Shown one piece after another: positions 5,424 through 58,465 of a stretch of 64,000 nt of DNA; the stretch's first letter is position 1, and the number at the start of each line of letters is the position of its first letter. The notes beneath the pieces are model-generated. The model was not told the DNA's origin. It did not search any database and worked only from the letters and a program-made list of their open reading frames with translations. The stretch is taken from the IMG/VR virus record IMGVR_UViG_3300049135_000064; one strand, written 5' to 3'. The position numbers were made by a program, and so were the translations under genes. Source of the stretch: an uncultured virus (IMG/VR IMGVR_UViG_3300049135_000064). Its lineage: Duplodnaviria; Heunggongvirae; Uroviricota; Caudoviricetes.

Positions 5424-5652
5424 ATGGTGGGCCCGGCTGACGGGCCGGGAACGGGATGTACATACATCCGACGAGGACGTCGCGGACATGGTCCGCGCCA
5501 AATACGAGGCGTCGCGGCTGCGCGACGAGGCCCAGGAGCTGCTCGACGACGCCCATTCCAATGCGGAAATGGTGCGCGACGGCAAGCGCGAGGACCACTA
5601 CATCGAAATCATCGACGCACTGTTCAGGGGTGAACGCAATGCAGCTGGATGA
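5413..5652 (+). CDS. Hypothetical protein
   Basis: GTG start overlapping the upstream gene; contains an in-frame palindrome copy (RDVHTS). Confidence 0.65.
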   Translation: MLSRWWARLTGRERDVHTSDEDVADMVRAKYEASRLRDEAQELLDDAHSNAEMVRDGKREDHYIEIIDALFRGERNAAG

Positions 5653-6016
5653 ATATCAGCCGGACCCGCTGATGCTGGGGGCCACTGCCCTGGCGTTTGC
5701 GGCGGTGCTCTCGGCGACGCTGGCCTACGGGCTGCTCGCGCCGTGGTGGACCTCGCGCACCGGGATCGGGTTCATGTCCACCAAGGTGTCGTTCACGGTC
5801 ATCATCGGGCTCACCCTGCTGCGCCGGATGGGGATGCCGCCGGAATACTGGCTGGCCGTCACGGCATGGCTGCTGGTGGCGGTGACGATGTTCGTCGGCG
5901 TGACGTGGAACATCCTCGACCAGCAGTTTTTCAGGAGGAGGTCCGACCGGATCAGTCCGACCGGCCGGCGGAGGAAGCACAACGATCCGAAGGGAAGAAC
6001 CAATGGAACCGACTGA
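5639..6016 (+). CDS. Putative holin (3 TM)
   Basis: Three hydrophobic segments and a basic C-terminal tail; end of late operon. Confidence 0.6.
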   Translation: MQLDEYQPDPLMLGATALAFAAVLSATLAYGLLAPWWTSRTGIGFMSTKVSFTVIIGLTLLRRMGMPPEYWLAVTAWLLVAVTMFVGVTWNILDQQFFRRRSDRISPTGRRRKHNDPKGRTNGTD

Positions 6017-6341: not shown

Positions 6342-6743
6342 TCATTTTCCGGATGTATGTACGTCCGGCTCCAGCTCGGTGATGGTCACGTCGAACCGGT
6401 ACCAGTCCTTGCGGCCCGACTTCTCCCCGCTGGGGTGCAGGAACGGGCCGGACACGTAGGAGTCGTTGTCATCCGGCAGGATTCCCTTCCCGCCGTCGAC
6501 CAGCCCGTCGAGGACGGTCTTCATGGTCGGGTGCAGGTTCGCCACATCCCGCGGCTGCCGCGCCGGGTAGGACACGTAGGCGTCGATCTTCACGCGCCCC
6601 GTCCACTTGGGCAGTGTGCGGTGCTGGAGGCTCCCCAGCTGCCGCAGCACTTTCTTCCGCTCGGCCTCCGGTCCCCAGTGCAGGCGCTGGTTGGCGTTGA
6701 GGATGTAGCCCTTGTGGATGTAGAGGGTGAAACTCTCGGCCAT
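6342..6743 (-). CDS. RusA-like Holliday junction resolvase
   Basis: RDVANLHPTMKTVLDGLVD...DDN matches the RusA-type acidic motif pattern. Confidence 0.75.
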   Translation of the reverse strand: MAESFTLYIHKGYILNANQRLHWGPEAERKKVLRQLGSLQHRTLPKWTGRVKIDAYVSYPARQPRDVANLHPTMKTVLDGLVDGGKGILPDDNDSYVSGPFLHPSGEKSGRKDWYRFDVTITELEPDVHTSGK

Positions 6744-7026: not shown

Positions 7027-7314
7027 CTACCCGGCCAGATCGTTTCCATCCGGGTAGGCCTCGGCGTACTCCTCCAGCTCCCGCTGTATCCGGATGCGGT
7101 CCATCTTCTCGTCGGCGCAGGACTTGCACAGTGTGTATGTCCACGACCCTGCATCCCCGAAGCTGCGGCTGCCGCCCTCGTGGGAGGCGTACTTCTCCTT
7201 GCGGCAGCCGGAACACACGTGGTTGACCCAGCCCCTGAACCATGTGTAGCCGGTGTCATGGTCGATCAGTCGGTCTCCGACGATGGTGATGTTGTTGGTC
7301 TTGGTTGTAGGCAT
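7027..7314 (-). CDS. Zn-ribbon protein (CxxC...CxxC), paralogue of 23489-23773
   Basis: CSGC and CKSC motifs; GAAGGA RBS. Confidence 0.65.
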   Translation of the reverse strand: MPTTKTNNITIVGDRLIDHDTGYTWFRGWVNHVCSGCRKEKYASHEGGSRSFGDAGSWTYTLCKSCADEKMDRIRIQRELEEYAEAYPDGNDLAG

Positions 7315-7346
7315 GTCGATTCCTTCTTCTTGTGAACGTGTGTAGA

Positions 7347-7547
7347 TCAAAACGGCGACCCGCCGTAGATTCCCCGGAAGTCGTCCAGGGTCCAGCCCTC
7401 CAGCACCAGTCTGTGTTCGCCAACGAGGTGGATGATGATCCCCTCCTCCCCGGTGGAGCAGTATCGCTCCACGAAACAGATGCTGTGCTTCGGGATTAGC
7501 TTCCCGCCAACCTCCAGCAGGTCCGTCTTGTTTATGGTGGTAGCCAT
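7347..7547 (-). CDS. Hypothetical protein
   Basis: MATTINK... start after the palindrome and an AAAGG RBS. Confidence 0.65.
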   Translation of the reverse strand: MATTINKTDLLEVGGKLIPKHSICFVERYCSTGEEGIIIHLVGEHRLVLEGWTLDDFRGIYGGSPF

Positions 7548-7579
7548 TTCGTTTACCTTTCCGGATGTATGTACATCCC

Positions 7580-9151: not shown

Positions 9152-9226
9152 GTCAGTCTCCTGTGAAAACACATTGTGTGGGGGAATGTGTGTGCTGGTT
9201 CCGGATGTATCTACATCCGGGTTTCG

Positions 9227-10391: not shown

Positions 10392-10703
10392 CTAGGTCGG
10401 TGCCCACTCGACGTCACCAGCCGCCGTCAGAATCACCCATCCCATGAACGTCTTGATCGGTACCGCCTCCGGCGTACTCTCATGGACGCTGATGATGTAG
10501 CCGTTCTCACGGGCTTGTGCCGGATGCCCATGGGCCCAGCTATGACAAGACGGGCACAGGCTGATGATGTTCCAGTACCCGTGCCCGCCTTCGCGCCGCC
10601 GTTGCCGATGGTGCTTGTGTCCTGCAGGATTCCCGCACCTCACGCACTGGCGCTGATCCCGCTCGTCGACAACTTCCCGCGCCTTCGTCGGGATCGCACT
10701 CAT
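10392..10703 (-). CDS. HNH endonuclease
   Basis: ERDQRQCVRCG...HHR...NIISLCPSCHSWAH. Confidence 0.85.
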   Translation of the reverse strand: MSAIPTKAREVVDERDQRQCVRCGNPAGHKHHRQRRREGGHGYWNIISLCPSCHSWAHGHPAQARENGYIISVHESTPEAVPIKTFMGWVILTAAGDVEWAPT

Positions 10704-11200
10704 GTCAGAACCTGGAGCAACCGCTTCGCCTGCTCCACGGTGAGGTCGGCCCCGACCACGGCGATTGCATACTCGATGTCTTCGTCGTCCCACTCCGTTG
10801 CGGGGCGGCGTGCTTCATATGCGGCGGTGGCTCTGCCGTCCACATCTTCCGGCAGAACGTAGACGCCGGAACCCATGCGGTCCTTGGCCAGCCGCGCGAG
10901 GTAGCCGGCGCGGTGCAGATTCTCGAGGATTCGCTTCGCGTCCTCGACGCGGAGGTTGGTATCCATGGCGACCGTGGCTGCGGTGACGCCGGAGTAACCC
11001 TCCTCACGTGCAAGGCAGTAGACCTGCACGGAACGCGTCCCGGTGTACGCCGCGAAGACCGGCCTAGCGACCTCGCCGAGCGTGATCGGCATGCGGTGCG
11101 CTTCTTCGTAGTCGAACTCCTGCCCCGCGTAGTAGGAAGCGATCGAGTCGTCGTCGCCTCCGCCCAGCGGAACATAGTTGTAGTTGGCGGTCATCGCCAT
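10700..11200 (-). CDS. Winged-helix DNA-binding protein
   Basis: TAATVAMDTNLRVEDAKRILENLHRAGYL resembles a wHTH. Confidence 0.55.
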   Translation of the reverse strand: MAMTANYNYVPLGGGDDDSIASYYAGQEFDYEEAHRMPITLGEVARPVFAAYTGTRSVQVYCLAREEGYSGVTAATVAMDTNLRVEDAKRILENLHRAGYLARLAKDRMGSGVYVLPEDVDGRATAAYEARRPATEWDDEDIEYAIAVVGADLTVEQAKRLLQVLT

Positions 11201-11288
11201 TTCCTTCCTGTTGTGGCGGATGTATGTACGTCCGCCCTTGGTTATGAATCTAGTGTGGTAGCACTTTGTTCGTTACTTCGTCGACGGC

Positions 11289-12878: not shown

Positions 12879-12940
12879 GGGAGGTTCCTTCCTGCCGGAC
12901 GTATGTACATCCGGGGTCTAGTGGTGATGGTGGTAGCCAT

Positions 12941-15075: not shown

Positions 15076-15163
15076 TGTCCTTCTCCTTGTTCGTGTTGCG
15101 TTTGCTCTGGAACGTGCCACTTACTTCTCTCTTACCTCGCCGGATGTATGTACGTCCGGTGTC

Positions 15164-16521: not shown

Positions 16522-17343
16522 TCAGTCGGACTCGACGGCGGACTCCGCCGACCAGTCTTCGAGTTCGTACTCCCCGTTGAGCTCTTCATCGAGGACATTC
16601 CGGACGTCGGAGCGGGTGACCGCGTCCTTCGCTTCGCTCTCGTCGGGCACGCCGCCCACGCTGACCGTAATCTCGAACGTCCCGGTGAACGTGACCTCCG
16701 TGGCCTCCATTCTCCGCAGGCCGTACATGTCTTCCAGCTTGCGGTCCGCCTCCACCGACGGACTGGGGTCGGTGTACTTGACGGTAACTCTGACAGTCAC
16801 GTCGTAGTCCCGCTTGATGTTGCGGCCGAACAGCCCGAGCGGAACGATCACCGCCTCGTAGTCCGGGCAGCACCCCCACGAATCCGCGAGTTCGTTGAGG
16901 TTGTCGTTCAGCTCGGTGAACGCGTCGTTCTCCGCCGCCAGCTGCTGCTGCAGCTCGTGCACCCGGTCCCGCTTGAGCGTGGCGATCGGCCGCTCGGCCC
17001 TGGCCTCGGCCCAGAACACCCCGTCGGCGTCGGCCCGGATCCGCATGGGCTGCATCCGCCGGCTGAACCCGCCCTCCGTCCGGACCAGCGCGGTGTGGGT
17101 GTAGAAGATCCAGTCGCCGGTGCCCGGTTCGAGGAGCGCGGTGCCCACCCGGGTGACGGTCTCGCCGTCGGTCCAGACAAGGTAGTCCGTGCAGGACTGC
17201 GGGGCCGGGTTCTGGTAGGCCCAGTTGTCGTCGTCGACTGCGGCCATGCCGAACGTGAAGTTGTTCTCGTCGTTCTGCAGCGGCTCCGGCTCAGACGTAT
17301 GTACATCCGGAGTGTTGTTCTCGGTGGTAGCCATGGTGGTCAT
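16522..17343 (-). CDS. Hypothetical protein
   Basis: 273-aa acidic ORF; in-frame palindrome (PDVHTS). Confidence 0.75.
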   Translation of the reverse strand: MTTMATTENNTPDVHTSEPEPLQNDENNFTFGMAAVDDDNWAYQNPAPQSCTDYLVWTDGETVTRVGTALLEPGTGDWIFYTHTALVRTEGGFSRRMQPMRIRADADGVFWAEARAERPIATLKRDRVHELQQQLAAENDAFTELNDNLNELADSWGCCPDYEAVIVPLGLFGRNIKRDYDVTVRVTVKYTDPSPSVEADRKLEDMYGLRRMEATEVTFTGTFEITVSVGGVPDESEAKDAVTRSDVRNVLDEELNGEYELEDWSAESAVESD

Positions 17344-18274: not shown

Positions 18275-18366
18275 GGCGCAGCCTCTTTCTGTTGGTTGAA
18301 CGAAGCCGGGCCGGACGTATGTACATCCGGCCCGTATGGGTTGGTGAGTGTGGTAGCTCTTAGCCG

Positions 18367-18706: not shown

Positions 18707-18750
18707 CACGGTCCTTTCGTTGGTGGATGTATGTACGTCTCAGTGGGGGA

Positions 18751-19026: not shown

Positions 19027-19110
19027 ATTCTTTCCTCCTTACTCTGGTCTTGCCGGATGTATGTACGTCCGGCTTGTCTGTGCCATGTCTGGAACATGGC
19101 CTAATACTCT

Positions 19111-19139
19111 ATTCTACCACAAGGTCTTGCCTTTGTCAA
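19111..19139 (-). promoter_or_regulatory. SigA-type promoter
   Basis: Minus strand TTGACA-17 bp-TAGAAT. Confidence 0.8.
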
Positions 19140-19195: not shown

Positions 19196-19672
19196 CTACA
19201 CGCCGCTCAGCGCCTCCTGCTCATGCTCCTGGTCGGCAGGCTCGGCCTCACCGGCCGGACGGAACACCGTCTTGCCGTTGACCAGCGCCTTGCTGACCCG
19301 GCCCGCGGCCGCGAGCTGCGACAGCTTCTGGTACAGCGCACCCGGGGTGCGGCCCGACTCCTTGGCCATGTCGGCCCGCTTCATCGTGACGTTGTCGACC
19401 ACCCACTGCTCCTCCTCGGCAGTCCACGCCTTCTGCGTGCCGCCGCGGTTGGACGTGGGTTTCTCAAAGACCTTGAAGTTCGGCCGGCCCTTCTTCTGGC
19501 CGATGCCGATCGCCTCAGCGACCTTCGCGTTGCAGTCCAGGCAGATGTCGAACTTCCCGTTCTGGTCCGTGACAGGTCCCGCGAGGGTGACCACCGTGAC
19601 GATGTTCTCTTCCTCGTTGGGGATGGTCTTCCCGCACGAGTCGCACAGGATTGCGGGGATCTTGATTCTCAT
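19196..19672 (-). CDS. DNA-binding protein (N-terminal Zn/Lsr2-like module, C-terminal wHTH)
   Basis: CDSC...CLDC; KRADMAKESGRTPGALYQKLSQLAAAGRV. Confidence 0.55.
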   Translation of the reverse strand: MRIKIPAILCDSCGKTIPNEEENIVTVVTLAGPVTDQNGKFDICLDCNAKVAEAIGIGQKKGRPNFKVFEKPTSNRGGTQKAWTAEEEQWVVDNVTMKRADMAKESGRTPGALYQKLSQLAAAGRVSKALVNGKTVFRPAGEAEPADQEHEQEALSGV

Positions 19673-19911
19673 TGGTCGAAGTTCTCCTCGGGTGACTGCG
19701 AGCCGCCGTCACGTGGGGTCCAGTAGCAGATGGAATAGATGGTGTGCTCGGAGACCGAGAACATCTCGGCCAGATCAGAGACTTTGTCGCCTTGCCGGAA
19801 GCGGTCACAAATATCTAACATCGCGCCGTCCGAGAGTTTCCTCGGTCGGCCCGTCATGCTCGACATGTTGAGCTGGGGTTCGCTTCGCATAATGGTGCGG
19901 GTCCTATTCAT
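19669..19911 (-). CDS. Stand-alone Hin/resolvase-type HTH protein
   Basis: GRPRKLS...G..VSDLAEMFSVSEHTIY. Confidence 0.7.
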   Translation of the reverse strand: MNRTRTIMRSEPQLNMSSMTGRPRKLSDGAMLDICDRFRQGDKVSDLAEMFSVSEHTIYSICYWTPRDGGSQSPEENFDQ

Positions 19912-20213: not shown

Positions 20214-20406
20214 AACTGGTGCTCCTTATAGGTAGGTTACTTCCTTGAGTCCCGCGTCATCTCGGTGTGGTAGCCAATCGGGCGGGGTCTTATCGGGGTG
20301 TCGTTTTGGACGTACATACATCCATCGGGTAGTTTCTTTGAGGCGGAAGGAACGACCAAGCGGTTTCCCCCAACACGCGCGGTCGTTCCTTCCGTTTCTT
20401 TATGCC

Positions 20407-21018: not shown

Positions 21019-21125
21019 GGTGTGAGTGTTCTTTCTGTGTGGTGAATGAGTGCACGGCGGACGTATGTACATCCGCCGTGCGGTTGGTGTGGGTAGCCGA
21101 TCGTTCGATTCCCCCGGGTAAAACT

Positions 21126-22383: not shown

Positions 22384-22679
22384 GATGTGTCTCCTTCCGG
22401 ATGTACATACGTCCGGCCTTCGGCGTATGCGATCAGGCCCTCGTGGCCGTGCTCGTTGCTGATGCTGATGGCGATCTGCAGGTCGGGGAATCCCATCGCC
22501 AGCCGCATGTAGTTCATGTCGTCGGCGTGGTCCCACGCCGAGAGCAGCCGGGCCGTGAACGTGCCCGGTTCCCAGCCGACATCGCGCCGGCCGAAGTGCC
22601 AGAGCAGGTGGCGGCAGTGCTCCTGTACCTGCGGGTCGAACACTTGGTCCGGTTCGTTCGTGGCCATCAGCCTCTCCAT
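22374..22679 (-). CDS. Hypothetical protein
   Basis: PGTFTARLLSAWDHADDMNYMRLAMGFP; fits the operon. Confidence 0.65.
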   Translation of the reverse strand: MERLMATNEPDQVFDPQVQEHCRHLLWHFGRRDVGWEPGTFTARLLSAWDHADDMNYMRLAMGFPDLQIAISISNEHGHEGLIAYAEGRTYVHPEGDTSWV

Positions 22680-23773: not shown

Positions 23774-23840
23774 GGTGCGGTTCCTTTCATGGGTGGCGGG
23801 CCGGACGTATGTACATCCGGCCCGCCGTGGTGTGTTGTGG

Positions 23841-24848: not shown

Positions 24849-24912
24849 GGTGTTTCTCCTTGGTGAACGGGATGTATGTACATCCGGTGAAATTGTCCAG
24901 ACAGTTGCTGGA

Positions 24913-26494: not shown

Positions 26495-26532
26495 TTCGGT
26501 GCTGCCTTTCGTTGGATGTATGTACGTCTGGT

Positions 26533-27073: not shown

Positions 27074-27519
27074 TCGGAGCACCCGCAATCCTTGTTCCCG
27101 TGGATGGTGCAGTCCCATCCGGCTTCGTCCTCCAGCGGTTCGGTGGCCGGCGGTTCGGTGACGGCCAGCTCCGCCATGTCGGCGTCGATCTGGTCCTGCT
27201 CCTGCTCCGCTGCAAGGCATGGCCCGTCGATGTCCTCGCGGTAGTGCGGTGAGTCCGCGGTGAACGGGACGAACTCGCACCAGTCCAGCTGCGCCTGTCC
27301 GATGCACCCGGATTCGTCCGGTGACGCCGCGCATTGTTCGATGGCCTCGTCGAACGTGGCCGGGATGGCCAGCTCGGCCAGCGCATCCTCGGTGGGTGCG
27401 GATGTATGTACGTCCGCCTCGGTGGTGATGTCGTAGCTGGCGGCTGTCAGTGCGGGCAGTGCGGGTATGCCGCATGCGGTGACGACGCAGGCGGCGAAGC
27501 CGATGGTCTTGAATTTCAT
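27070..27519 (-). CDS. Secreted Cys-containing protein
   Basis: Signal peptide; C-terminal WDCTIHGNKDCG; in-frame palindrome (ADVHTS). Confidence 0.65.
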   Translation of the reverse strand: MKFKTIGFAACVVTACGIPALPALTAASYDITTEADVHTSAPTEDALAELAIPATFDEAIEQCAASPDESGCIGQAQLDWCEFVPFTADSPHYREDIDGPCLAAEQEQDQIDADMAELAVTEPPATEPLEDEAGWDCTIHGNKDCGCSE

Positions 27520-27592
27520 GGTGTGGTAGCTCCTTGTGCTGGATGTATGTACGTCTATGGTCGATGATTGCGTGGCTATTCCGTACGCGGGG

Positions 27593-27868
27593 TTACTTGG
27601 TGACGCTAACCTCCTCCGGCCATGCCACTTCGGCCGCCTTCTCGCAGTCGCTGCGCATGGTGTCGTCGGTGGACAGATCGCGGCACTGGACCAGCGCCTC
27701 CTCGTACGTGTTCACGGGGGGCCATAGCGTGTCGGATGTATGTACGTCCGGGTTTACGGTGACGGTGTCCGTGGTGACGGGCAGCAGTCCGGCGGCAAGC
27801 CAGACGAATCCGGCGGCGGTGGCCGTGGCGGCGGTGAGGGCGGCGGCGGGTAGGGCGAAGCGAGGCAT
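27593..27868 (-). CDS. Membrane-anchored or secreted protein
   Basis: Hydrophobic N-terminus; in-frame palindrome (PDVHTS). Confidence 0.6.
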   Translation of the reverse strand: MPRFALPAAALTAATATAAGFVWLAAGLLPVTTDTVTVNPDVHTSDTLWPPVNTYEEALVQCRDLSTDDTMRSDCEKAAEVAWPEEVSVTK

Positions 27869-28126: not shown

Positions 28127-28471
28127 GGCCGTGCTCCTTCGGATGTATGTACGTCTAGGCCGTGGGCCGTGACCGGCCGGGCCCAAGCTGGACCAGCGCC
28201 CCACGCCAATCACGGGGGTGGTGGTAGTGAGAGTACGGAGGGTTCAGTGACGGACCGTTCCGTGGCCCTAGGCCGTGACCGTTCAATGACGGACGGGCAT
28301 AGGCGGATATACGGATGTACGCATAGGGACGGGGGCGCATCCAGGCACCGGCGGGCATGCCTGGGCGGGGGCTGACGACACGGATGTATGTACGTCCGGA
28401 CCTGCCGACAGCACGGAGGAACAACGATAGGCCGGAGGTCCGAAGACCCCCGGCCTACTAGCCGATCTTGC

Positions 28472-29442: not shown

Positions 29443-29959
29443 GCCTAGGCAAGATGTACATACATCCGCACCGTGACTAGGCCGTGGCCATGCCGGGCCG
29501 ATATTCCGGACGTACATACATCCGCCATTCAATGGCCATTCAATGGCCAAATTCCGCGCGGGCATTGACAAAACCGACCCCCGTACCCCCGGACAACCGC
29601 CCCGAACGGCCCCCGGATGCACGGTAGGCGTCCTGGTAAATGGATCCGACCTGGGGATGGTTTCCGTAGACGGTTTTGCCGGTCCGGGTGGGGGATTTGA
29701 GGCCGTCCGTGGACGGTTCGATCCAGTTTTGGGCCTTCGGCTGGACAAAAGTGTCGAGCCCTAACGGGCTGGGAAAAAAACTTGAAGCCCTGACGGGCTT
29801 TTCGTCTACGTTCCGTCCACCATCCGGGAAATTTCCGGACATTCGGGGGTGGTAGTAGGAGTTTCGGGGCATTTCCGTCTACACTTTCAATACACCGTCC
29901 TTTGGGGATGTGGTATTCAGGCTCCGTGGGGGAGCCGTGTGCAGGGAAAGGGGACCGTT

Positions 29960-36387: not shown

Positions 36388-36531
36388 ATGAGCCGCCGCG
36401 GATGCTACATGACCGTCCAGTTCTGGAAGCGGTACAGCGTCTGCCCGAGATGCGGCCACGTCAGGCGCAGCTGGTGGGCCGACCCGCTGCTCCACAACGG
36501 ACGCAAACCGCGGAAGCGGGCCCGGGCATGA
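36388..36531 (+). CDS. Small basic Cys protein
   Basis: CPRC; PLLHNGRKPR. Confidence 0.5.
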   Translation: MSRRGCYMTVQFWKRYSVCPRCGHVRRSWWADPLLHNGRKPRKRARA

Positions 36532-36803
36532 GGATGATTGCCGCACGCGGTCCGGAGGAGCTGCTGGAAGCGGTCCGCGAAGGATTGAAACAGCGCGGCG
36601 TCACACAGGTGGAGCTGGCCAAGCATCTTGGCTTCTCCGCCAAGCACATGAACCAAGTCATCCACGGCAAGGCCGGGCTGGGCCTGCACCACATGTTCGA
36701 GATTCTGGCCTACCTTGAGGTCGGTGTCATGCTCGTCCCGATGGAACGGCAGCCAACTATGATCAATGGGAAAACCAACGACTACAAGAGGGCTGCCACA
36801 TGA
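36528..36803 (+). CDS. XRE-family HTH transcriptional regulator
   Basis: RGVTQVELAKHLGFSAKHMNQVIHGK. Confidence 0.85.
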   Translation: MRMIAARGPEELLEAVREGLKQRGVTQVELAKHLGFSAKHMNQVIHGKAGLGLHHMFEILAYLEVGVMLVPMERQPTMINGKTNDYKRAAT

Positions 36804-37530: not shown

Positions 37531-37784
37531 GGAACTGCTACCATCCATGTAGGCCCGGTGCCTTTCCTCGGATACCCGGGGGTCGCCCAAGACACGACGG
37601 CACCGGGCCTGCACACATAAGAGGCCCCCACCTCCGGAAGTCCTGATGTCCCTCCCGGGCACATTTGGTCCAAGTCAGCCGGACGGTGGGGGCCTTTTTG
37701 CTGCCCGAAAACGGGCGTCTCAGTTTCCTCAAAGTGGAACAGCTTCCGGACCACTTCCGGATGTACATACATCCCGGCGGATTC

Positions 37785-37849
37785 CGTATCAAAACTGTCT
37801 TCAAAAGAGCGTGTCTAAACACGGGTACGGAACGGACTTTTGGTACGCT
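37785..37849 (+). promoter_or_regulatory. Putative res/recombinase-binding region and leaderless promoter
   Basis: CGTATCAAAA...TTTTGGTACG inverted repeat; TACGCT 6 bp before the ATG; no RBS. Confidence 0.45.
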
Positions 37850-37855
37850 CGGCGC

Positions 37856-38449
37856 ATGGACATCGGATACGCGCGGGTATCGACCGCACAACAGGACCTC
37901 GCCCGCCAGCTCGATGCGCTGCAGGGTCACGGCATCGACCCGAAACACATCTACATCGACAAGAAGTCCGGAGCCACCACGAAGCGCGAAGGTCTGCAGA
38001 AGGCGCTGGACTTCGCCCGGGAGGGCGACGTCATCGTGGTCTACACGCTGGACCGGCTCGGCCGCACGGTGCGGGACACGCTGAACATGATCCACGACCT
38101 GCAGGAGCGCGGCATCGGGGTGCGGACCCTGGCCGATCCGATCAAGGTCGACTCCACCAACCGGGACGATCCGATGGCGCAGCTGGGCGTGGTGCTGCTG
38201 GCGATGTTCGCGCAGATGGAGCGCACCTACACGATGGAGCGGGCCGCGCACGCCCGGGCGGTCGCGCTGAAAGAGGGACGGCAGATCGGCCGGCCGTCGG
38301 TGCTGGACGAGAAGAAGCTGCGCGACGCCAAGGCTCTGCGGGAGAAGGGGGTGGCGCTGGCCGACATCGCCCGGCACCTCGGCGTCTCCCGGGCCACGCT
38401 GTACCGGCACCTGCCGCCGCTTCCGCCGGAATCCGTCACGGTAGATTAG
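37856..38449 (+). CDS. Small serine recombinase (resolvase/invertase family)
   Basis: GYARVST..QDL.RQ...SG...REGL...GDVIVV..LDRLGR; C-terminal GRP...GVSRATLYR HTH; 197 aa. Confidence 0.95.
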   Translation: MDIGYARVSTAQQDLARQLDALQGHGIDPKHIYIDKKSGATTKREGLQKALDFAREGDVIVVYTLDRLGRTVRDTLNMIHDLQERGIGVRTLADPIKVDSTNRDDPMAQLGVVLLAMFAQMERTYTMERAAHARAVALKEGRQIGRPSVLDEKKLRDAKALREKGVALADIARHLGVSRATLYRHLPPLPPESVTVD

Positions 38450-43119: not shown

Positions 43120-45509
43120 TCCGCACCGAACGGCTCGCAGCCGCCACCGACGAGTTCGCCGCCGAGCGAAAGTCCATCCTTGAACGCACAGAGGAGCGCA
43201 TCCGCGACGCCGTCCGCGCCTCCCTGATCCGCATCGGGCTCTCCGGCTGGACCGAGAACGCGGTGGAGGCCGCGGTGGACGTGTTCGAGGAGACCGCCTC
43301 GTACGAATCCGACGAGTGGGGGCCGGTGCTCGATGACATGCGCGCCGAGTTCAACCGCGAAATCACCGCCGCGCTGGAGAAGACCAAGCCCGTCTCCGCC
43401 GAGGACCGCGAGGGCCAGCTGAACACCATCACGCGCTGGCTCTCCGTCGCCGCCGTGAACGCCGGGACCGAGGCCGCCGCGACCGCCGACACCGACGAGG
43501 CCGTCGGGCTGGAGTGGATCACGATGGGCGACACGCATGTGCGCTCCCTGCATGCCGACGCCAACGGGCAGACCGTCCCCTCCGGCATGCCGTTCACCGT
43601 CGGCGAGGTGGAGCTGCTGTACCCGGGCCAGCCGGTCGGCTCCCCCGAGCACTGGATCAACTGCCGCTGCGTTGCCCGGCCCACGTCGCTGACCGAGCTT
43701 GCCGTCCGCAACGTTTCGATGGGCACCATCGACGCCTCCAAGATCACGCCGCACACGCTCATCGCCGCCGGACCCGGACCCCGCCCCGAAGGGGAGGAGC
43801 CGGATGTAGATACATCCGAACCGGTCCCCGAGGAGGTCACCGACGAACCGGCGCTGGAGGACATCGAGTCGCTGGAGGAGAACGCCTACCCGGAGGTGCC
43901 CTGGCACGGGGTGCTGGCCCCGGAGGGCAAGCCGTCCGGCGACGGGCGGATGTTCGCGCCCAACTCGCTGACCCACCGCCCGCTGCCGATCACGCTCAAG
44001 TACATGTGGGAGGACGACGAGGGCCACACCGGTTCCTACCCGGTCGCCCGCATCGACCGGATCGTCCGCCGCAACGGCATGGTCATGGGCGAGGGTGTGT
44101 TCGACACCTCCCCCGCCGCCTACGAAGCGGTGCGCGTCGTCGCCAACGGCATCATGAACGGCGTCTCCGTCGACGTCGACGCCGCCGTTGCCGCCATGAG
44201 CGAGGACGACGCGGAGGCCATCGAGTTCACCAGCGCCAGGATTTCCGCCGCCACCATCTGCGCGATCCCCGCGTTCGCCGAGGCGTTCATCGCGCTGGGC
44301 CCGCTGCCCGAGGAGGACGCCGACGCCGAGGAGGTCCCTGAGGAGGCCGAGGTGCCCGAGGAAGCGGTGCCGGCCGACACCGAGGAGGAGCCGGAGGCCC
44401 CGGCGGAGGACGAGGAGGAGAAGCCGTTCCCGCCGAAGAAGCTCGCCTCCGACACCGAGGACTTCGACATCCCGCCCCGGAAGACCAAGGACGGCCCGGG
44501 CTGGATCACCGACCCGAAGCCGACGAAGCAGATCACCGGCTACTGGGTCGACGGTCCCGGCGCGGCCAAGATCAGCTGGGGGGCACCGGGCGATTTCAAC
44601 AGGTGCAGGACTCAGCTGGTCAAGTACGTGCAGAATCCCGACTGGCTGGCCGGGCTGTGCGCCAACCTCCACTACCGCGCGCTCGGCGCATGGCCGGGGC
44701 AGGCATCCGGAAGGACAGAGGAAATCGACATGACGCAGAACATCACCGCATCGGTCACGCTGGCTGAGGCCGAAACCAAGGTCCTGCCAGCGGACTGGTT
44801 CAAGGACCCGCAGCTGCCGTTCGCCACCCCGCTGACCATCACGAACGAGGGCCGGATCTTCGGGCACATCGCGGACTGGTCCACCTGCCACATCTCGGTC
44901 GGCTCCAACCCGAACGAGTGCGTGCTGGCCCCGCGCTCGAACACCGACTACGCCTACTTCCTCACCGGGGAGGTCGACACCAACCAGGGCCCGGTGCCGG
45001 TCGGGCAGATCACCATGGGCGGCGGGCACGCCGACCTGCGCTCCGGGGTGCGCGCGGCGATCGCGCACTACGACTCGACCTCCACCGCCGTCGCGGACGT
45101 CACGGTCGGCGAGGACGAGCACGGCATCTGGTTCGCCGGGGCGCTGCGCGAGGGGCTGACTTCCAAGCAGCTGCGCGAGCTGAAGGCTGCCAGCCTCTCC
45201 GGCGACTGGCGCGGGGTGCGCAAGACCAGCGGCGGGGTGCAGCGCGAGCTGGTCGCGGCGCTGGCGGTCAACGTGCCCGGCTTCCCGATCCCCCGCCCGT
45301 CGTTCTCCACGTCCGGCACCGAGGTCATGGCGCTGGTCGCCGCCGGTATCCCCAAGCGGGAGGCCGACATCGACGACACCACCATCGACGCGCTGGTCGA
45401 GGCCGCGCTGGTCCGGCGCGAACGCCGTGCAAGGCTCGAGAAGGCTCAGGCCACCATTCGCAAGGCGCGTCTCATGCGCGCTAAGACCCTCATCAACAAC
45501 TACAAGTAG
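43116..45509 (+). CDS. MuF-like / capsid maturation protease fusion
   Basis: W..MGD.HVR..H...GQ...PF...YPG...INCRC (MuF); PEG.PSGDGR; GHIA.W..CH; GED.HGIWFAG; LSGDWR. Confidence 0.85.
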   Translation: MIRTERLAAATDEFAAERKSILERTEERIRDAVRASLIRIGLSGWTENAVEAAVDVFEETASYESDEWGPVLDDMRAEFNREITAALEKTKPVSAEDREGQLNTITRWLSVAAVNAGTEAAATADTDEAVGLEWITMGDTHVRSLHADANGQTVPSGMPFTVGEVELLYPGQPVGSPEHWINCRCVARPTSLTELAVRNVSMGTIDASKITPHTLIAAGPGPRPEGEEPDVDTSEPVPEEVTDEPALEDIESLEENAYPEVPWHGVLAPEGKPSGDGRMFAPNSLTHRPLPITLKYMWEDDEGHTGSYPVARIDRIVRRNGMVMGEGVFDTSPAAYEAVRVVANGIMNGVSVDVDAAVAAMSEDDAEAIEFTSARISAATICAIPAFAEAFIALGPLPEEDADAEEVPEEAEVPEEAVPADTEEEPEAPAEDEEEKPFPPKKLASDTEDFDIPPRKTKDGPGWITDPKPTKQITGYWVDGPGAAKISWGAPGDFNRCRTQLVKYVQNPDWLAGLCANLHYRALGAWPGQASGRTEEIDMTQNITASVTLAEAETKVLPADWFKDPQLPFATPLTITNEGRIFGHIADWSTCHISVGSNPNECVLAPRSNTDYAYFLTGEVDTNQGPVPVGQITMGGGHADLRSGVRAAIAHYDSTSTAVADVTVGEDEHGIWFAGALREGLTSKQLRELKAASLSGDWRGVRKTSGGVQRELVAALAVNVPGFPIPRPSFSTSGTEVMALVAAGIPKREADIDDTTIDALVEAALVRRERRARLEKAQATIRKARLMRAKTLINNYK

Positions 45510-53754: not shown

Positions 53755-53788
53755 ACGGGATGTACATACATCCGGAAGGGAGGCCGCC

Positions 53789-56700: not shown

Positions 56701-58465
56701 GATCGCCACCGCCATCGGCGGGTTCATCGACTTCGTCAAGGGCCTGTTCGGCATCGCCTCCCCGTCGACGGTCTTCATGGAAATCGGCACGTTCCTGATC
56801 GAGGGCCTGATTCAGGGCATCCAGAACATGATCGGTTTCCTCGTCGAGGTGTTCACCACCATCGGCACCGCGATCCTCGACGCCGTCACCGCCTTCGTCA
56901 CCAATGTGGTGTCGTTCTTCTCGACCGCGTGGAACGGGCTGGTGACGATCGTGACCACGGTGTGGACCGCGATCCAGACCGCCATCCAGACCGCCATCAC
57001 CTTCATCCAGACCATCATCACCACCATCTTCACCGCGATCAGCGCCTACATCGGGCTCGCCATCGCGGGCTGGCAGCTGATCATCACCACCGTCTGGAAC
57101 GCGATCAAGACCGTGGTCTCCAACGCGGTCACCGGCGTGCAGACCGTCGTCACCAACGTGTTCAACGCCGTCTCGACGTTCATCCAGATGATCTGGACCG
57201 GGATCAAGGTCTACTTCGGCGTCGCCATGGCGCTGATCCGCATGGTCATCACCACCGCGTGGAACAACATCAAGACCAACATCACCAACACCATCAACAA
57301 CATCAAGGCGGTCATCACCACGGTCTGGAACGCCGTGAAGTCCTTCCTGTCCACCACGCTGAACAACATCAAGACCGGGGTCACCACGGCCTGGAACAAC
57401 ATCAAGACCAATGTCACGAACACCGTCAACGCGGTGAAGACCTTCCTGACCAATACGTGGAACAACATCAAGACCGCGGTCACGAACGCGGTGAACGGCG
57501 CGAAGTCGAACATCACCACCGCATGGAACAACGTGAAGTCCACGACCAACTCCGTCATCGGCGCGGTGAAGACGTTCCTGTCCAATACGTGGAACGGGAT
57601 CAAGACCACGATCACGAACGCAGTGAACGGGGCCAAGTCCAACATCACCACCGCGTTCAACAACGCGAAGTCCAGCGTCACCAACATCGTCAACGGCATC
57701 GTCGATTTCGTCCGCGGCATCCCGGGCAAGTTCCTCTCCGCCATCTCCGGGGTCTCCCAGCTGGCGGGCAAGCTCGGCGGCTACGTGCAGCAGGCCAGGA
57801 CCGCGGTCTCCAACAAGTTCTCCGAAGTGGTCTCCTACGTCTCGGGCATCCCGGGCCGGATCCTCTCCGCGCTGGGTAACCTCGGCTCCACCCTCTACAC
57901 CGCCGGTACGCAGGTGATTTCCGGGTTCATGAACGGCATCGGCTCGATGGCCGGCTCGCTGATTTCCAAGGCCACGGGCGTGGTGTCCGGCGCAATCAAC
58001 GCCGCGAAGAACCTGCTCAACCTCGGCTCGCCGTCGAAGCTGTTCCACCAGTTCGGTGTCTGGACCGGCGAGGGCCTCGTCGGCGGCCTCGACGCGATGG
58101 CCCGCCCGGTCGCGGACGCCGCGGAGAAGATGGCGGCGGCGACGACGGAGGCGTTTGCCTCCTCCAAGATGCGCGTCGCCGGGCAGGACGCCGGGCGCGG
58201 GCTGGCGGACGGGCTGCTGGCTTCCAAGTCCGCGATCGCCGGTGCCTACAAGACGCTGACCACCGGCTCGATCAGCGCCACCATCGGCACCACCGGGCAG
58301 ATCGCCATGAAGCCGGATGTACATACATCCGCGCCGGTCGTCCCGCCGGGGAAGTCGATCACCATCGAGTCCGGCGCGATCCAGCTGTCCACCCAGTCCA
58401 AGAACCCGGAGACCAGCGCGCACATCCTGCTCGACGAACTGGCCAGCTACGCGAGGATCGGATAG
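53789..58465 (+). CDS. Tape measure protein
   Basis: 1558 aa; VGDAYIEV N-terminus; W/F-periodic 11-residue repeats; GIASPS and LGSPSK motifs. Confidence 0.95.
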   Translation: MATKVGDAYIEVHGDLSRFRKDLNKAAKAGREAGAESAESFWDGWNRRSEKEWTDQWQGLLDAMYSGKKVDWEKALGRLDSDDLDAARNKMYDLVEEAENFNKVTDEGEKEDQERYGKLIDAIDAAVDSVKKQRKIEGQLAADRKMWERAHLTMMANKAAFEDDFNRDYAAAVRENMRFDKNAAAERVRLAKEAAQAEVDRLAKVKAAMETYKRSWVGMIKASKEARIEKDIQKIVDAWERADWSGMTKGAKDLDVLGARVRNTIKTMEDMGRVSTETAEQIRKSISHHLNDEENRRLAIIKTKEEAERYKKSLVGLSDAHKDATTVKEWKALAAAIGSMDFSKIAKGHKNWKSLEDQIRKTAAAAEQMGIATKADLDTISVHTQRAKNNMRQFNVELSNGFKLANPLKGIFEKMSTSWARMDDTVRTVLTLIATGAGPMATLGSGLAGSVTAIASSIGMAAAALIPLATGVVGLGAAAGLAVTSWDEVVKHLPRINTSLKDIGATWTEQASIFGREWRETIDELLHEFSTGFAKYDFGEPFGIAAAEITNAFRGIVTGGPFAAFMEQMETNIPTATAGLGVGFAGVFSTLISLLAGAAPVAAELGTMFGEWGTKLAEATEKARETGVLQTVFEKARDSLVAVLDLAGSIGNALGTLFMLGADSGNRMLGVLTGLVDKFNAWMQSEAGRATMLEWFQNAETIMGALGPVIGSVATALAGLVTPESITQFSDLMTGVSEFIPILGELLGAISALGIFNTLAALLNTVGAALEPLLPPLKTLLTALGEGMRGAITALSPLFASIGAALAPVIQHFAEIAQRVGPKVVELFGKVSEALSPVIDVVGQVAGALLGFIGPILGDLLIGIIEAAIDVIDGLIGIFKGLGDIVAGVVQIFQGDFAGGMATVWDGVVQVFTGAVTALWGIVRLWVVGKLIGGLKAAFSGLGGWLGGIAKNLWTGFINGIKSGWAVITAAIATAIGGFIDFVKGLFGIASPSTVFMEIGTFLIEGLIQGIQNMIGFLVEVFTTIGTAILDAVTAFVTNVVSFFSTAWNGLVTIVTTVWTAIQTAIQTAITFIQTIITTIFTAISAYIGLAIAGWQLIITTVWNAIKTVVSNAVTGVQTVVTNVFNAVSTFIQMIWTGIKVYFGVAMALIRMVITTAWNNIKTNITNTINNIKAVITTVWNAVKSFLSTTLNNIKTGVTTAWNNIKTNVTNTVNAVKTFLTNTWNNIKTAVTNAVNGAKSNITTAWNNVKSTTNSVIGAVKTFLSNTWNGIKTTITNAVNGAKSNITTAFNNAKSSVTNIVNGIVDFVRGIPGKFLSAISGVSQLAGKLGGYVQQARTAVSNKFSEVVSYVSGIPGRILSALGNLGSTLYTAGTQVISGFMNGIGSMAGSLISKATGVVSGAINAAKNLLNLGSPSKLFHQFGVWTGEGLVGGLDAMARPVADAAEKMAAATTEAFASSKMRVAGQDAGRGLADGLLASKSAIAGAYKTLTTGSISATIGTTGQIAMKPDVHTSAPVVPPGKSITIESGAIQLSTQSKNPETSAHILLDELASYARIG

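What the first reader, a model, noticed from the sequence alone, without database searches (positions are those of the whole stretch)
5454..58330. Genome-wide polar palindrome system: 28 copies of GGAYGTA-CA-TACRTCC oriented with transcription
Seen: 7-bp inverted arms (often extended to CCGGATGTA..TACATCCGG) flank an asymmetric 2-bp centre, CA in 26 copies and GA in two (9203, 43802). The centre reads CA/GA on the sense strand in 19 of 21 copies in the leftward arm and 5 of 5 in the rightward arm. The exceptions are 20308 and 22399; two more copies lie in the divergent gap (29452, 29508). The T/C variation hits one arm or the other, never both, so there is no compensatory pairing, which favours a dsDNA protein-binding site over an RNA hairpin. 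Known parallel: mycobacteriophage L5 stoperators are also numerous and transcription-oriented, but they are asymmetric 13-mers bound by an immunity repressor. Inference: this is a different, palindromic network in a phage with no recognisable integrase or immunity cassette. It could be a roadblock/operator system, an array of recombination sites, or a DNA-organising (parS-like) mark.
Basis: partly seen in the sequence, partly recalled or inferred. Interest (0 to 1): 0.9.

Follow-up and report, generated by a model that had tools for sequence, protein, structure and literature searches.

The report
Repeated polar palindrome in soil phage
An uncultured soil phage carries 28 copies of one short palindrome, mostly just ahead of its early genes, which is a new example of a repeat type already described but never explained in related phages of actinobacteria.

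Summary
GGAYGTA-NN-TACRTCC occurs 22 times exactly and 28 times with up to 2 mismatches, against 0.43 expected. The centre, orientation and one-arm-only T/C counts are as reported. The window is a lytic-type actinophage from a soil metagenome. Its large terminase is about 55% identical to Arthrobacter phages SilentRX and Tank and to Microbacterium Cluster EG phages.

It is not a new kind of thing. Cluster EG phages have an 18-bp inverted repeat with a 2-bp spacer 14-22 bp upstream of start codons. Cluster O mycobacteriophages have more than 30 copies of a 17-bp dyad. Both are of unknown function.

I found that each of ten relatives checked carries its own multi-copy palindrome, and the six distinct relatives scanned for the window's motif lack it. 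Some positions are conserved while the sequence differs.

The orientation bias is real but partly compositional (p about 0.007-0.015).

Best reading (0.4): DNA operators for a phage-encoded dimeric regulator of the early arm. Main rival (0.27): an RNA-level element between cistrons. The binder is not identified.

The parts
5454..5469 (+). Site 1. Perfect arms, CA centre. Lies after the minor-tail gene (1-5103) and ahead of the holin-like region.
6351..6366 (-). Site 2. C4 type. Lies inside the last 8 codons of the RusA-like gene 6342-6743 (…EPDVHTSGK*), at the junction where the two arms converge.
7563..7578 (-). Site 3. Perfect arms. Lies just after the stop of 7580-7810, with a start codon 15 nt downstream.
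9203..9218 (-). Site 4. Perfect arms, GA centre. Lies between the Rad52-like gene (9227-10018) and the exonuclease gene (8075-9172).
11218..11233 (-). Site 5. C4 type. Lies 17 nt upstream of the winged-helix gene 10700-11200.
12897..12912 (-). Site 6. G13 type. Lies 18 nt upstream of the primase/helicase start.
15142..15157 (-). Site 7. C4 type. Lies between the SSB gene and 14635-15120.
17293..17308 (-). Site 8. G13 type with T at position 16. Intragenic, at the N-terminus of 16522-17343 (TPDVHTSEP).
18313..18328 (-). Site 9. G13 type, the core of a 28-nt perfect palindrome. Lies 38 nt upstream of 17357-18274.
18725..18740 (-). Site 10. AGAC variant. Lies 15 nt upstream of 18560-18709.
19055..19070 (-). 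Site 11. C4 type. Lies between the SigA-like promoter 19139-19111 and the start of 18751-19026.
20308..20323 (+). Site 12. C4 type. Its centre is reversed relative to the direction of the genes.
21059..21074 (-). Site 13. G13 type, the core of a 28-nt palindrome. Lies 40 nt upstream of the ATG at 21018.
22399..22414 (+). Site 14. G13 type with a reversed centre. Lies 15 nt upstream of the ATG at 22383.
23803..23818 (-). Site 15. G13 type. The 28-nt palindrome is identical to that at site 9. Lies 29 nt upstream of 23489-23773.
24870..24885 (-). Site 16. Perfect arms. Lies 21 nt upstream of the DUF932 gene.
26514..26529 (-). Site 17. AGAC variant. Lies 19 nt upstream of the DUF4192 gene start at 26494.
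27400..27415 (-). Site 18. C4 type. Intragenic in 27070-27519 (EADVHTSAP).
27541..27556 (-). Site 19. AGAC variant. Lies 21 nt upstream of the start of 27070-27519.
27734..27749 (-). Site 20. C4 type. Intragenic in 27593-27868 (NPDVHTSDT).
28141..28156 (-). Site 21. AGAC variant. Lies 14 nt upstream of the ATG at 28126.
28382..28397 (-). Site 22. C4 type. Lies about 30 nt beyond the terminator-like hairpin 28458-28427.
29452..29467 (+). Site 23. AGAT variant in the divergent gap. Lies 10 nt from the -35-like hexamer of the leftward promoter-like site 29442-29414.
29508..29523 (+). Site 24. C4 type in the divergent gap. Followed by two 11-nt direct repeats.
37759..37774 (+). Site 25. Perfect arms. 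Lies 36 nt upstream of the GTG start (37811) of the serine invertase gene.
43802..43817 (+). Site 26. Perfect arms, GA centre. Intragenic, in an acidic linker of the MuF-protease gene (EPDVDTSEP).
53758..53773 (+). Site 27. Perfect arms. Lies 15 nt upstream of the tape-measure gene start.
58315..58330 (+). Site 28. Perfect arms. Intragenic in the tape-measure gene, at residue 1508 of 1558 (KPDVHTSAP). SilentRX, AWGoat and Tank carry their own palindrome at the homologous position.
10700..11200 (-). Candidate binder. A MarR/ArsR-like winged-helix protein of 166 aa.
36402..36803 (+). Candidate binder. A Cro/C1-type HTH protein of 133 aa, specific to this lineage.
19669..19911 (-). Candidate binder. 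A small HTH_7-type protein of 80 aa.
37811..38449 (+). Serine invertase/resolvase (212 aa from the GTG start). Considered as a site user and disfavoured.

Best explanation
The 18-bp dyad C-GGAYGTA-CA-TACRTCC-G is most likely the DNA recognition site of a phage-encoded dimeric DNA-binding protein of HTH or winged-helix type.

The two 8-bp arms are centred 10 bp apart. That would place two recognition helices in successive major grooves on one face of the DNA. The 2-bp centre would not be contacted base by base, and a flexible pyrimidine-purine step would be preferred there.

The sites are spread through the leftward early arm. They sit in the short gaps between a stop codon and the next ribosome-binding site, beside the early promoter region in the divergent gap, and at the end of the arm. 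A few lie at fixed places in the late arm. Occupancy would therefore control transcription of the early arm as a whole, as a distributed operator/roadblock network like stoperators but with dyad symmetry.

Shown: the sites, their numbers, their positions, the lack of compensatory change, the lineage-specific sequence and the positional conservation.

Inferred: that a protein binds them, that it acts on DNA, and that the effect is repression or timing. The binder is not identified. The MarR-like protein 10700-11200 is the best lead, followed by 36402-36803 and 19669-19911.
For: 1. Both arms keep their sequence in all 28 copies. Positions 2, 3, 5-7, 9-12, 14 and 15 are invariant in 28 of 28. Variants break pairing rather than compensate: 13 C4, 6 G13, 0 double.

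2. The 2-nt spacer and weak stems argue against a hairpin. Three of the four AGAC-type copies have a predicted sense-RNA fold of 0 kcal/mol and the fourth -1.8. Mean sense energy is -9.25 and antisense -10.24. Pairing does not extend into the flanks in general: 3 of 28 copies extend by 4 bp or more, against 2.4% of shuffled flank pairs.

3. Each of the ten relatives checked has its own palindrome at equivalent places. None of the six distinct relatives scanned for the window's motif has it. Five were found by my own de novo scan: SilentRX 41 copies, AWGoat 47, Tank 29, Odyssey395 25, Ranunculus 34 and Sunfish 12. Rizwana (31) and BruhMoment (32) were then found with the SilentRX pattern, and OneinaGillian (12) with the published Cluster EG pattern. 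Spacers are 0-4 bp and total length 14-24 bp. This is what co-evolution with a trans-acting specificity factor predicts.

4. Sites lie next to promoter-like elements and outside coding units. Site 29452 is 10 nt from a -35-like hexamer. In SilentRX and AWGoat, sites stand about 20 nt upstream of TTGACA boxes in the terminal repeat.

5. In the MarR-like family the winged-helix region is identical in SilentRX and AWGoat, which share a motif. It is nearly identical in Odyssey395 and Ranunculus, which share motif arms. It differs in the window.

6. The authors who described the Cluster O repeats also predicted a dimeric DNA-binding protein (passages read).
Against: 1. The centre is polar. It is co-oriented in 24 of 26 copies here, with p 0.007-0.015 even against composition-aware nulls. 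Relatives are polar too:
- GNNA versus TNNC loops on the coding strand are 18:2 in SilentRX, 13:2 in AWGoat and 20:1 in Tank.
- The centre is CC 12 versus GG 0 in Odyssey395.
- In SilentRX plus AWGoat, non-Watson-Crick stem positions on the coding strand are G.U 17 versus A.C 2. These two genomes are close relatives, so the counts are not independent.
A symmetric dimer on duplex DNA does not predict any of this. It points to reading on RNA or single-stranded DNA, at least in those lineages.

2. No binder conserved across all lineages was found. The MarR-like family has no detectable homologue in Tank, which shares the SilentRX motif, or in Sunfish. The RHH family is present in 7 of 7 genomes but does not co-vary with the motif. 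I saw no HTH in the ParB-like family alignment.

3. All six intragenic copies share one frame and orientation. A pure DNA site needs an extra assumption to explain this, namely selection for a harmless peptide.

4. No experiment exists for this repeat class in the papers I read.
Confidence: 0.4

Rival explanations
1. The element is read on the polycistronic early transcript. It would be a short hairpin or sequence tag just 5' of each ribosome-binding site, recognised by a phage factor or acting by structure. It would set translation, processing or stability of each cistron and mark operon ends.
For: - Polarity is seen here and in relatives.
- Tank and Rizwana have 7-bp G+C-rich stems. Their loops are GCAA or GTAA on the coding strand in 19 of 26 Tank sites, and in most Rizwana sites.
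- Stem variants in SilentRX and AWGoat are G.U 17 versus A.C 2 on the coding strand.
- 17 of 28 sites here have a plausible start codon 14-40 nt downstream, 11 of them at 14-21 nt.
- In 6 of 6 genomes with a RusA-like gene, a site lies within 10 nt of, or inside, the 3' end of that gene at the operon end.
- Tank, SilentRX and AWGoat have a site after the major tail gene, and Tank also has one after the capsid gene.
- Three sites here are 28-nt perfect palindromes with fold energies of -21 to -23.5 kcal/mol.
Against: - In this phage 13 of 28 copies have a C.A mismatch mid-stem in the sense RNA.
- Three of the four AGAC-type copies do not fold at all and the fourth only weakly (-1.8).
- The antisense strand folds better in 17 of 28 copies.
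- The spacer is 2 nt here and 0 nt in Ranunculus.
- There are no compensatory changes and no general flank pairing.
- A purely structural role does not need identical sequence at every copy.
- No Rfam family matches.
- There are no U-tracts after the sites on the coding strand.
Confidence: 0.27
2. The repeats are module-boundary or recombination sequences. They would be shared microhomology at which related phages exchange gene cassettes, using the phage's own exonuclease, Rad52-like annealing protein and RusA. A variant is that they are crossover sites for the serine invertase at 37811-38449, with the asymmetric 2-bp centre setting polarity.
For: - Soil-metagenome relatives keep the motif. 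Among the rows shown, five contig ends or joints fall exactly on a site edge: 11233 twice, 17308, 18725 and 20323. About 0.56 is expected. The rows shown are a selected subset, so this figure is rough.
- 4 of 52 SilentRX-AWGoat homology-block ends lie within 3 nt of a site edge, against 0.78 expected.
- The phage encodes an exonuclease, a Rad52-like protein and a RusA-like protein.
One copy lies 36 nt upstream of the invertase gene.
Against: - The other genome pairs show 0-2 coincident ends.
- The sites are the only conserved islands in the intergenic gaps, so alignments and assemblies tend to stop there anyway.
- The Cluster O authors saw few if any repeats at indel or rearrangement boundaries.
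- 0 of 5 relatives with equivalent palindromes encode a resolvase.
- Arms of 7-9 bp are shorter than the roughly 12-bp half-sites of invertases (recalled).
- 28 co-oriented sites would invite deletions.
Confidence: 0.1
3. The sites act on single-stranded or bulk DNA rather than on gene expression. Examples are hairpin signals on the lagging-strand template for the phage primase/helicase, or a parS-like organising mark bound by the conserved ParB-like protein.
For: - If replication starts near the divergent gap or terminal repeat, site polarity cannot be told apart from fork direction. This follows from the arm layout.
- A ParB-like protein is present in 7 of 7 genomes compared.
- Every genome has one or two sites in or near the terminal repeat.
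Against: - The ParB-like proteins align as about 195-aa ParB N-terminal (nuclease-type) domain proteins. I saw no HTH and no region that varies with the motif.
- Site density follows gene junctions.
- No strand preference for wobble pairs over mismatches is seen here: 13 versus 6.
Confidence: 0.08
4. The repeat has no function for the phage. It would be a self-spreading or gene-conversion-homogenised palindrome tolerated in gaps and protein linkers.
For: - Copies sit in linkers of proteins, always in the frame that gives a harmless peptide.
- Two identical 28-nt copies exist.
- A at position 1 and C at position 4 co-occur on the same arm, as copying would give (Fisher p=0.014).
Against: - Positions are conserved across lineages while the sequence is replaced. 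Examples are the tape-measure site in four genomes and the RusA-end site in six.
- The trait is retained in all ten relatives checked.
- No transposase-like gene was found.
Confidence: 0.05

Closest known systems
Cluster EG Microbacterium phage 18-bp inverted repeats (GATCAACCNNGGTTGATC; Jacobs-Sera et al. 2020, PMC7302621; PMC9224216)
   Same: - Arms of 8 bp with a 2-bp spacer.
- Multiple copies in short gaps, typically 14-22 bp upstream of start codons.
- Concentrated in the leftward non-structural arm.
- No repressor or integrase reported, and function unknown.
- The phages are related to this one: TerL is about 54.5% identical.
- In OneinaGillian I found 12 copies. Outside the terminal repeat, the centre on the coding strand is CA in 4, CG in 5 and CT in 1.
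   Different: - The arm sequence is different.
- There are 8-12 copies against 28.
- Here there are also copies in the late arm and inside genes.
- Here the T/C half-site variant splits the sites into classes.
- I could not see their S10D figure, which is an image.
Cluster O mycobacteriophage 17-bp dyad repeats (TGTTCGGNNNCCGAACA; Cresawn et al. 2015, PMC4351075)
   Same: - More than 30 copies.
- Denser in the leftward arm.
- About a third lie inside genes.
- Apparently lytic phage.
- The authors predict a dimeric DNA-binding protein, and function is unknown.
   Different: - The spacer is 3 bp and the arms are invariant.
- The authors saw little evidence of orientation with transcription.
- The repeats are not closely start-linked.
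- The phage is unrelated, with a prolate head.
Mycobacteriophage L5 / Cluster A stoperators
   Same: - Tens of copies.
- Oriented with transcription.
- Spread through the transcription units. As described in the Cluster O paper's discussion; the rest is recalled.
   Different: - Asymmetric 13-mers bound by the immunity repressor of a temperate phage.
- Here the site is a dyad, no immunity repressor is identified, and no integrase was found.
Conserved inverted repeats of Streptomyces phage phiC31 bound by its repressor (recalled; not found in the library)
   Same: A highly conserved palindrome in many intergenic regions of an actinophage, bound by one phage protein (recalled).
   Different: Temperate phage with a known repressor. 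I could not read the source, so this comparison is untested.
Start-associated sequences of Cluster K mycobacteriophages and Cluster EF/EC Microbacterium phages
   Same: Conserved motifs just upstream of start codons in actinophages, of unknown role.
   Different: Those motifs are asymmetric and overlap or adjoin the ribosome-binding site. This one is a dyad that ends 3-10 nt before it.

Membership tests
Cluster EG-type start-associated inverted repeats | Inverted repeat of about 18 bp with a 2-bp spacer | tested here: met
   7-bp core arms plus C at -1 in 20 of 28 and G at +1 in 22 of 28, with a 2-bp centre.
Cluster EG-type start-associated inverted repeats | [quoted passage not shown] | tested here: met
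   17 of 28 sites have a start 14-40 nt downstream, 11 of them at 14-21 nt. 15 of 27 early-arm gaps of 30 nt or more hold a site, and 0 of 10 shorter ones do, using my own crude gene calls.
Cluster EG-type start-associated inverted repeats | Concentrated in the leftward non-structural arm of a related phage | tested here: met
   21 sites in the leftward arm plus 2 in the gap, of 28. TerL is 54.5% identical to OneinaGillian.
Cluster EG-type start-associated inverted repeats | Same repeat sequence | tested here: not met
   The EG consensus differs from GGAYGTA-CA-TACRTCC in the arms. Only the layout and the CA centre are shared.
Cluster O dyad repeats | 7-bp arms, 3-bp A/T-rich spacer, no orientation | tested here: not met
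   The spacer is 2 bp and 24 of 26 sites are co-oriented.
L5-type stoperators | Asymmetric site | tested here: not met
   The arms have dyad symmetry.
L5-type stoperators | Bound by an immunity repressor of a temperate phage | not testable with these tools
   No integrase family was found in the 74 ORFs scanned. A Cro/C1-type HTH is present. Binding is untested.
Serine-recombinase crossover sites | Dyad with an asymmetric 2-bp centre shared by partner sites | tested here: met
   CA in 26 of 28.
Serine-recombinase crossover sites | A cognate recombinase goes with the sites | tested here: not met
   An invertase is present here, but 0 of 5 relatives with equivalent palindromes have a Resolvase-domain match.
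ParB/parS | ParB with a sequence-specific HTH domain | tested here: inconclusive
   Only the ParB N-terminal domain is matched. I saw no HTH in the alignment of seven homologues. No structure was predicted.
RNA hairpin elements (terminators, processing sites) | Stem kept by compensatory or wobble changes on the transcribed strand | tested here: not met
   Here C.A mismatches number 13 and U.G wobbles 6 on the CA-oriented (mostly coding) strand, with no double changes. In SilentRX and AWGoat the feature is met: G.U 17 versus A.C 2.
RNA hairpin elements (terminators, processing sites) | Match to a curated RNA family | tested here: not met
   0 Rfam matches at gathering score in the window.

The most novel reading that the evidence does not exclude
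These lineage-specific palindromes form a polar 'punctuation code' of a whole group of lytic actinophages. The code would be read on the transcript or on single-stranded DNA by a fast-evolving phage factor that processes or gates each early cistron. In logic it would resemble CRISPR-repeat or integron attC recognition rather than an operator. The window's AT-rich 8-2-8 form would be one dialect. Its split into perfect sites (all five late-arm sites) and half-variant sites (19 of 23 early-arm and gap sites) would encode two regulatory classes.
Probability: 0.15. Interest if true: 0.8.

Novelty: new member of a known kind. Interest (0 to 1): 0.5.

Why it matters
Multi-copy short palindromes ahead of early genes have been noted in Cluster EG and Cluster O phages, but nobody knows what they do.

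This window and the ten relatives checked show the trait is wider than reported. It also occurs in the Arthrobacter phages Tank and Rizwana (Cluster AP), SilentRX, AWGoat and BruhMoment, Odyssey395 and Ranunculus, and in a Curtobacterium phage. The 2017 Arthrobacter paper does not contain any of the six repeat terms I searched.

Three properties stand out:
- Each lineage has its own sequence.
- Some positions are kept while the sequence is replaced.
- The centre is polar.

Together these describe a regulatory system whose specificity turns over quickly, in phages that have no known repressor. Because cultured relatives exist, the question can be tested directly. If the binder is found, it would give a family of orthogonal site-protein pairs for actinobacterial genetics.

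Tried and rejected
**Searches that found no close relative**
- Near-DNA search of 8 kb against GenBank phages gave only a 230-bp match to KellEzio.
- The exact motif in IMG/VR gave 3 single hits, taken as chance.
Each listed stretch held a single exact match. Mean G+C of all loci held at that point was 0.48. With up to 2 mismatches, 8 loci held two copies. I judged none of these a relative.
- The 20-mer form in 185,579 species genomes gave 0 hits.
- The primase/helicase had no relative in IMG/VR.

**Resources not available**
- No whole genome is held for the window.
- Earlier findings were not open.
- No RNA holder is listed for this DNA.

**Read laying**
- The read laying tables were truncated: 40 of about 2,300 differences were shown. 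Per-site conservation in relatives could not be measured.

**Ideas tested and dropped**
- Restriction-site avoidance: GTAC, ACGT and TGTACA occur at expected frequency outside the motif.
- SigA promoter within the motif: I saw no -10-like hexamer by eye. The scan found only 2 promoter-like sites in 14 kb, neither inside a site.
- RHH protein 34868-35251 as binder: present in 7 of 7 genomes, but its beta-strand is alike in the window and SilentRX, which have different motifs, and differs in Tank, which shares the SilentRX motif.
- ParB-like protein as binder: I saw no HTH.
- A screen for proteins unusually conserved between SilentRX and Tank flagged only the RusA-like protein and a minor tail protein.

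**Uninformative results**
- Atlas look-alikes for 28472-29359 gave nothing useful. For 10700-11200 there was only weak winged-helix likeness, TM 0.40-0.48.

**Checks with flaws**
- The PHROG scan of 20407-21019 (protein 21) was mis-framed by one base. The gene is 20407-21018, so that blank is void.
- The in-frame count used 11 of 17. My recount gives 10 of 17, so that p-value is too small.

**Not done**
- No structure was predicted and no complex was modelled.

Full report
**1. The observation**

GGAYGTANNTACRTCC occurs 22 times exactly, against 0 in 100 shuffles. With up to 2 mismatches it occurs 28 times, against a mean of 0.43.

- In the orientation where the centre reads CA, eleven arm positions are invariant in 28 of 28 copies.
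- The centre is CA in 26 copies and GA in 2.
- C precedes the motif in 20 of 28 copies and G follows it in 22 of 28. The unit is therefore an 18-bp dyad with 8-bp arms and a 2-bp centre.
- Thirteen sites have C at position 4, six have G at position 13, nine have neither and none has both. About 2.8 with both are expected, so P(0)=0.053.

- All five late-arm sites are the perfect form, against 4 of 23 elsewhere. Fisher p=0.0013, a post-hoc test.
- A at position 1 goes with C at position 4 on the same arm (p=0.014).
- Three sites are 28-nt perfect palindromes, and two of these are identical.

**2. What the window is**

The window is 65.7% G+C and has no tRNA genes. The gene layout is as follows.

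- A rightward late arm: ParB-like, TerS-like, RHH protein, TerL, portal, MuF-protease fusion, capsid, tape measure, minor tail, holin-like.
- A leftward early arm at 6342-29359: RusA-like, exonuclease, Rad52-like, winged-helix protein, primase/helicase, RepA-like initiator, SSB, DUF932, DUF4192 and many small ORFs.
- A divergent gap at about 29360-29850.

TerL is 54-59% identical to Arthrobacter phages SilentRX, Tank and Odyssey395, to Curtobacterium phage Sunfish and to Microbacterium Cluster EG phages. Those phages have the same two-arm layout. Tank and OneinaGillian have direct terminal repeats, and SilentRX shows repeated ends in my scan.

The DNA comes from soil metagenomes. Relatives are present in other soil runs.

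**3. Where the sites lie**

- Seventeen of 28 have a plausible start codon with a purine-rich ribosome-binding site 14-40 nt downstream. Eleven of these are at 14-21 nt.
- By my crude gene calls, 15 of 27 early-arm gaps of 30 nt or more hold a site. None of the 10 shorter gaps or overlaps does.
- Six sites are inside genes. All are in the same frame and orientation, and they encode (P/A)DVHTS or DVDTS in linker-like regions.
- One site lies in the last codons of the RusA-like gene, at the junction where the two arms converge.
- Two lie in the gap. One of these is 10 nt from a -35-like hexamer.
- One lies between a strong SigA-like promoter (19139-19111) and the next start codon.

**4. Orientation**

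Twenty-four of 26 sites have CA on the coding strand. Against a 50:50 null p=5e-6. However, the coding strand favours A over T.

- CA versus TG runs 59% overall.
- ACAT versus ATGT runs 69-74%.
- The site flanks predict 73%.

Against nulls of 0.70-0.73, p is 0.007-0.015. The bias is probably real, but it is much weaker evidence than the raw count suggests.

**5. What is already known**

Jacobs-Sera et al. 2020 describe 8-10 copies of an 18-bp inverted repeat with a 2-bp spacer in Cluster EG phages. The copies lie typically 14-22 bp upstream of start codons at the right genome end. The authors compare them with the 17-bp repeats of Cluster O (passages read). A second paper gives 10 intergenic copies in OneinaGillian (passages read).

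Cresawn et al. 2015 describe 34 copies in Corndog. About a third are inside genes. The authors saw little orientation, predicted a dimeric DNA-binding protein, and left the function unknown (passages read).

So the kind is described but unexplained. The 2017 Arthrobacter phage paper contains none of the terms 'inverted repeat', 'stem-loop', 'repeated sequence', 'palindrom' or 'conserved sequence'.

**6. Relatives**

None of the six distinct relatives scanned has the window's motif. Rizwana, BruhMoment, MellowYellow and OneinaGillian were not scanned for it. Each of the ten relatives checked has its own palindrome:

| Phage | Repeat | Copies |
|---|---|---|
| SilentRX | GGGTCGG-N4-CCGACCC | 41 |
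| AWGoat | GGGTCGG-N4-CCGACCC | 47 |
| Tank | GGGTCGG-N4-CCGACCC | 29 |
| Rizwana | GGGTCGG-N4-CCGACCC | 31 |
| BruhMoment | GGGTCGG-N4-CCGACCC | 32 |
| Odyssey395 | a 24-bp dyad | 25 |
| Ranunculus | a 24-bp dyad, different centre | 34 |
| Sunfish | CGTCTAGC-S-GCTAGACG | 12 |
| OneinaGillian | the published EG repeat | 12 |

MellowYellow lacks the GGGTCGG form and was not examined further.

In all of these the sites crowd the promoter-proximal part of the leftward arm and sit between stop codon and ribosome-binding site.

Some positions are conserved while the sequence differs.
- The window, SilentRX, AWGoat and Tank each have their own palindrome at the homologous place about 41-50 codons before the end of the tape-measure gene.
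- All six genomes with a RusA-like gene have a site within 10 nt of, or inside, its 3' end.
- The MuF-gene sites are not at homologous positions.

**7. DNA or RNA?**

*For DNA in this phage.*
- There is no compensatory change.
- The spacer is 2 nt.
- Thirteen copies have mid-stem C.A mismatches.
- Three of the four AGAC-type copies have zero predicted sense folding and the fourth folds only weakly (-1.8).
- The antisense strand folds better in 17 of 28 copies.
- There is no general flank pairing and no Rfam match.
- Across lineages, spacers of 0-4 bp and lengths of 14-24 bp suit dimeric HTH proteins better than hairpins.

*Against DNA.* Polarity recurs in relatives even after allowing for composition.
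- GNNA versus TNNC loops are 18:2 (p=7e-4), 13:2 (p=0.009) and 20:1 (p=5e-5).
- The centre in Odyssey395 is CC 12 versus GG 0 (p=0.008).
- Tank-type loops are GCAA or GTAA.
- Stem variants in SilentRX and AWGoat are G.U 17 versus A.C 2 on the coding strand, although T is the rarest base there.

For the G+C-rich N4 lineages, an RNA or single-strand hairpin is therefore well supported. For the 8-2-8 lineages, which are the window and EG, it is not. In EG, by my reading, three variants give A.C on the coding strand and one gives G.U.

A mixed model fits all the data but is untested. In it, the arms are read on duplex DNA and the uncontacted centre is shaped by the transcript.

**8. Who binds?**

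| Candidate | Finding |
|---|---|
| RHH family (34868-35251) | In all seven genomes, but does not co-vary with the motif |
| ParB-like family | In all seven genomes, but I saw no HTH |
| Serine invertase | Private to this phage; 0 of 5 relatives have one |
| MarR-like winged-helix family (10700-11200) | Co-varies as a binder should in five genomes, but is undetectable in Tank and Sunfish |
| Cro/C1-type HTH (36402-36803) | Specific to this lineage |
| HTH_7 protein (19669-19911) | A homologue in Ranunculus and a weak match in Odyssey395 |

The binder remains open.

**9. Recombination**

Contig ends and joints of soil relatives fall on site edges more often than expected among the rows shown: 5 against 0.56. 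So do 4 of 52 SilentRX-AWGoat block ends, against 0.78 expected. Other genome pairs show nothing. The sites are also the only conserved islands in the gaps, which would produce this pattern anyway. I treat it as a side effect at most.

**10. Verdict**

The repeat is real and well above chance. It is a new member of a described but unexplained class. It is not a new kind of system, and stoperators are not its nearest relative.

- Best mechanism: a distributed dyad-operator network for a phage-encoded dimeric regulator of the early arm (0.4).
- Main rival: an RNA-level element between cistrons (0.27).

Interest is moderate. The value lies in the cross-lineage pattern and in the fact that cultured relatives make it testable.

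Noticed in passing
SilentRX L004+L005; Tank, AWGoat, Odyssey395, Ranunculus, Sunfish L127-L146: Each relative carries 12-47 copies of its own palindrome. On the coding strand, Tank and Rizwana loops are almost all GCAA or GTAA, and stem variants in SilentRX and AWGoat are nearly all G.U. The 2017 Arthrobacter paper contains none of the six repeat terms I searched.
   Followed up: partly
window 18307-18334 and 23797-23824: Two identical 28-nt perfect palindromes are built around the motif. A third, different one lies at 21053-21080. Predicted fold energies are -21 to -23.5 kcal/mol.
   Followed up: partly
window 28427-28458 (- strand): A strong terminator-like hairpin (14 pairs followed by a T-rich tail) lies right after the first early gene, 28472-29359. 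This suggests the early arm needs read-through or further promoters.
   Followed up: no
window 19111-19139 (- strand): A near-consensus SigA-type promoter, TTGACA-17-TAGAAT with a TG extension, lies inside the early arm.
   Followed up: no
window 29524-29545: Two tandem 11-nt direct repeats lie directly after gap site 29508. Other short repeats occur nearby. This may be an origin or packaging region, and by analogy with relatives it is probably the collapsed terminal repeat.
   Followed up: no
window 7027-7350 and 23489-23773; 19965-20213 and 21126-21329: Two pairs of paralogous small early genes have no homologue in the six relatives compared. The first pair has a four-cysteine zinc-ribbon pattern, and 23489-23773 has a site 29 nt upstream.
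   Followed up: no
window 35337-38449: A lineage-specific module sits between the RHH gene and TerL. It holds an endonuclease-like ORF, a Cro/C1-type HTH, phrog_18163 and a serine invertase. It is absent from SilentRX at that place.
   Followed up: partly
window 34868-35251: A conserved 127-aa protein (phrog_31270) is annotated 'DNA binding protein' in SilentRX. By eye it shows a ribbon-helix-helix sequence pattern. It lies next to the TerS-like gene in all seven genomes, so it is probably packaging-related.
   Followed up: partly
window 24886-24920; SilentRX 44270 and 63236 regions: A second shared motif, TCCAG…CTGGACA, lies next to some palindrome sites. In SilentRX and AWGoat it is followed by TTGACA boxes. 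It may be a set of early promoters or operators.
   Followed up: no
window, 17 start-associated sites: In 10 of 17 cases the distance from motif end to start codon is a multiple of three, against about 6 expected. The DVHTS frame therefore often runs in frame into the next gene. This is weak and unexplained.
   Followed up: partly
window 1-5103 and 60838-63999: Both ends of the window are open reading frames of the minor-tail family. The record therefore continues beyond the window, or is a circular or permuted assembly.
   Followed up: no
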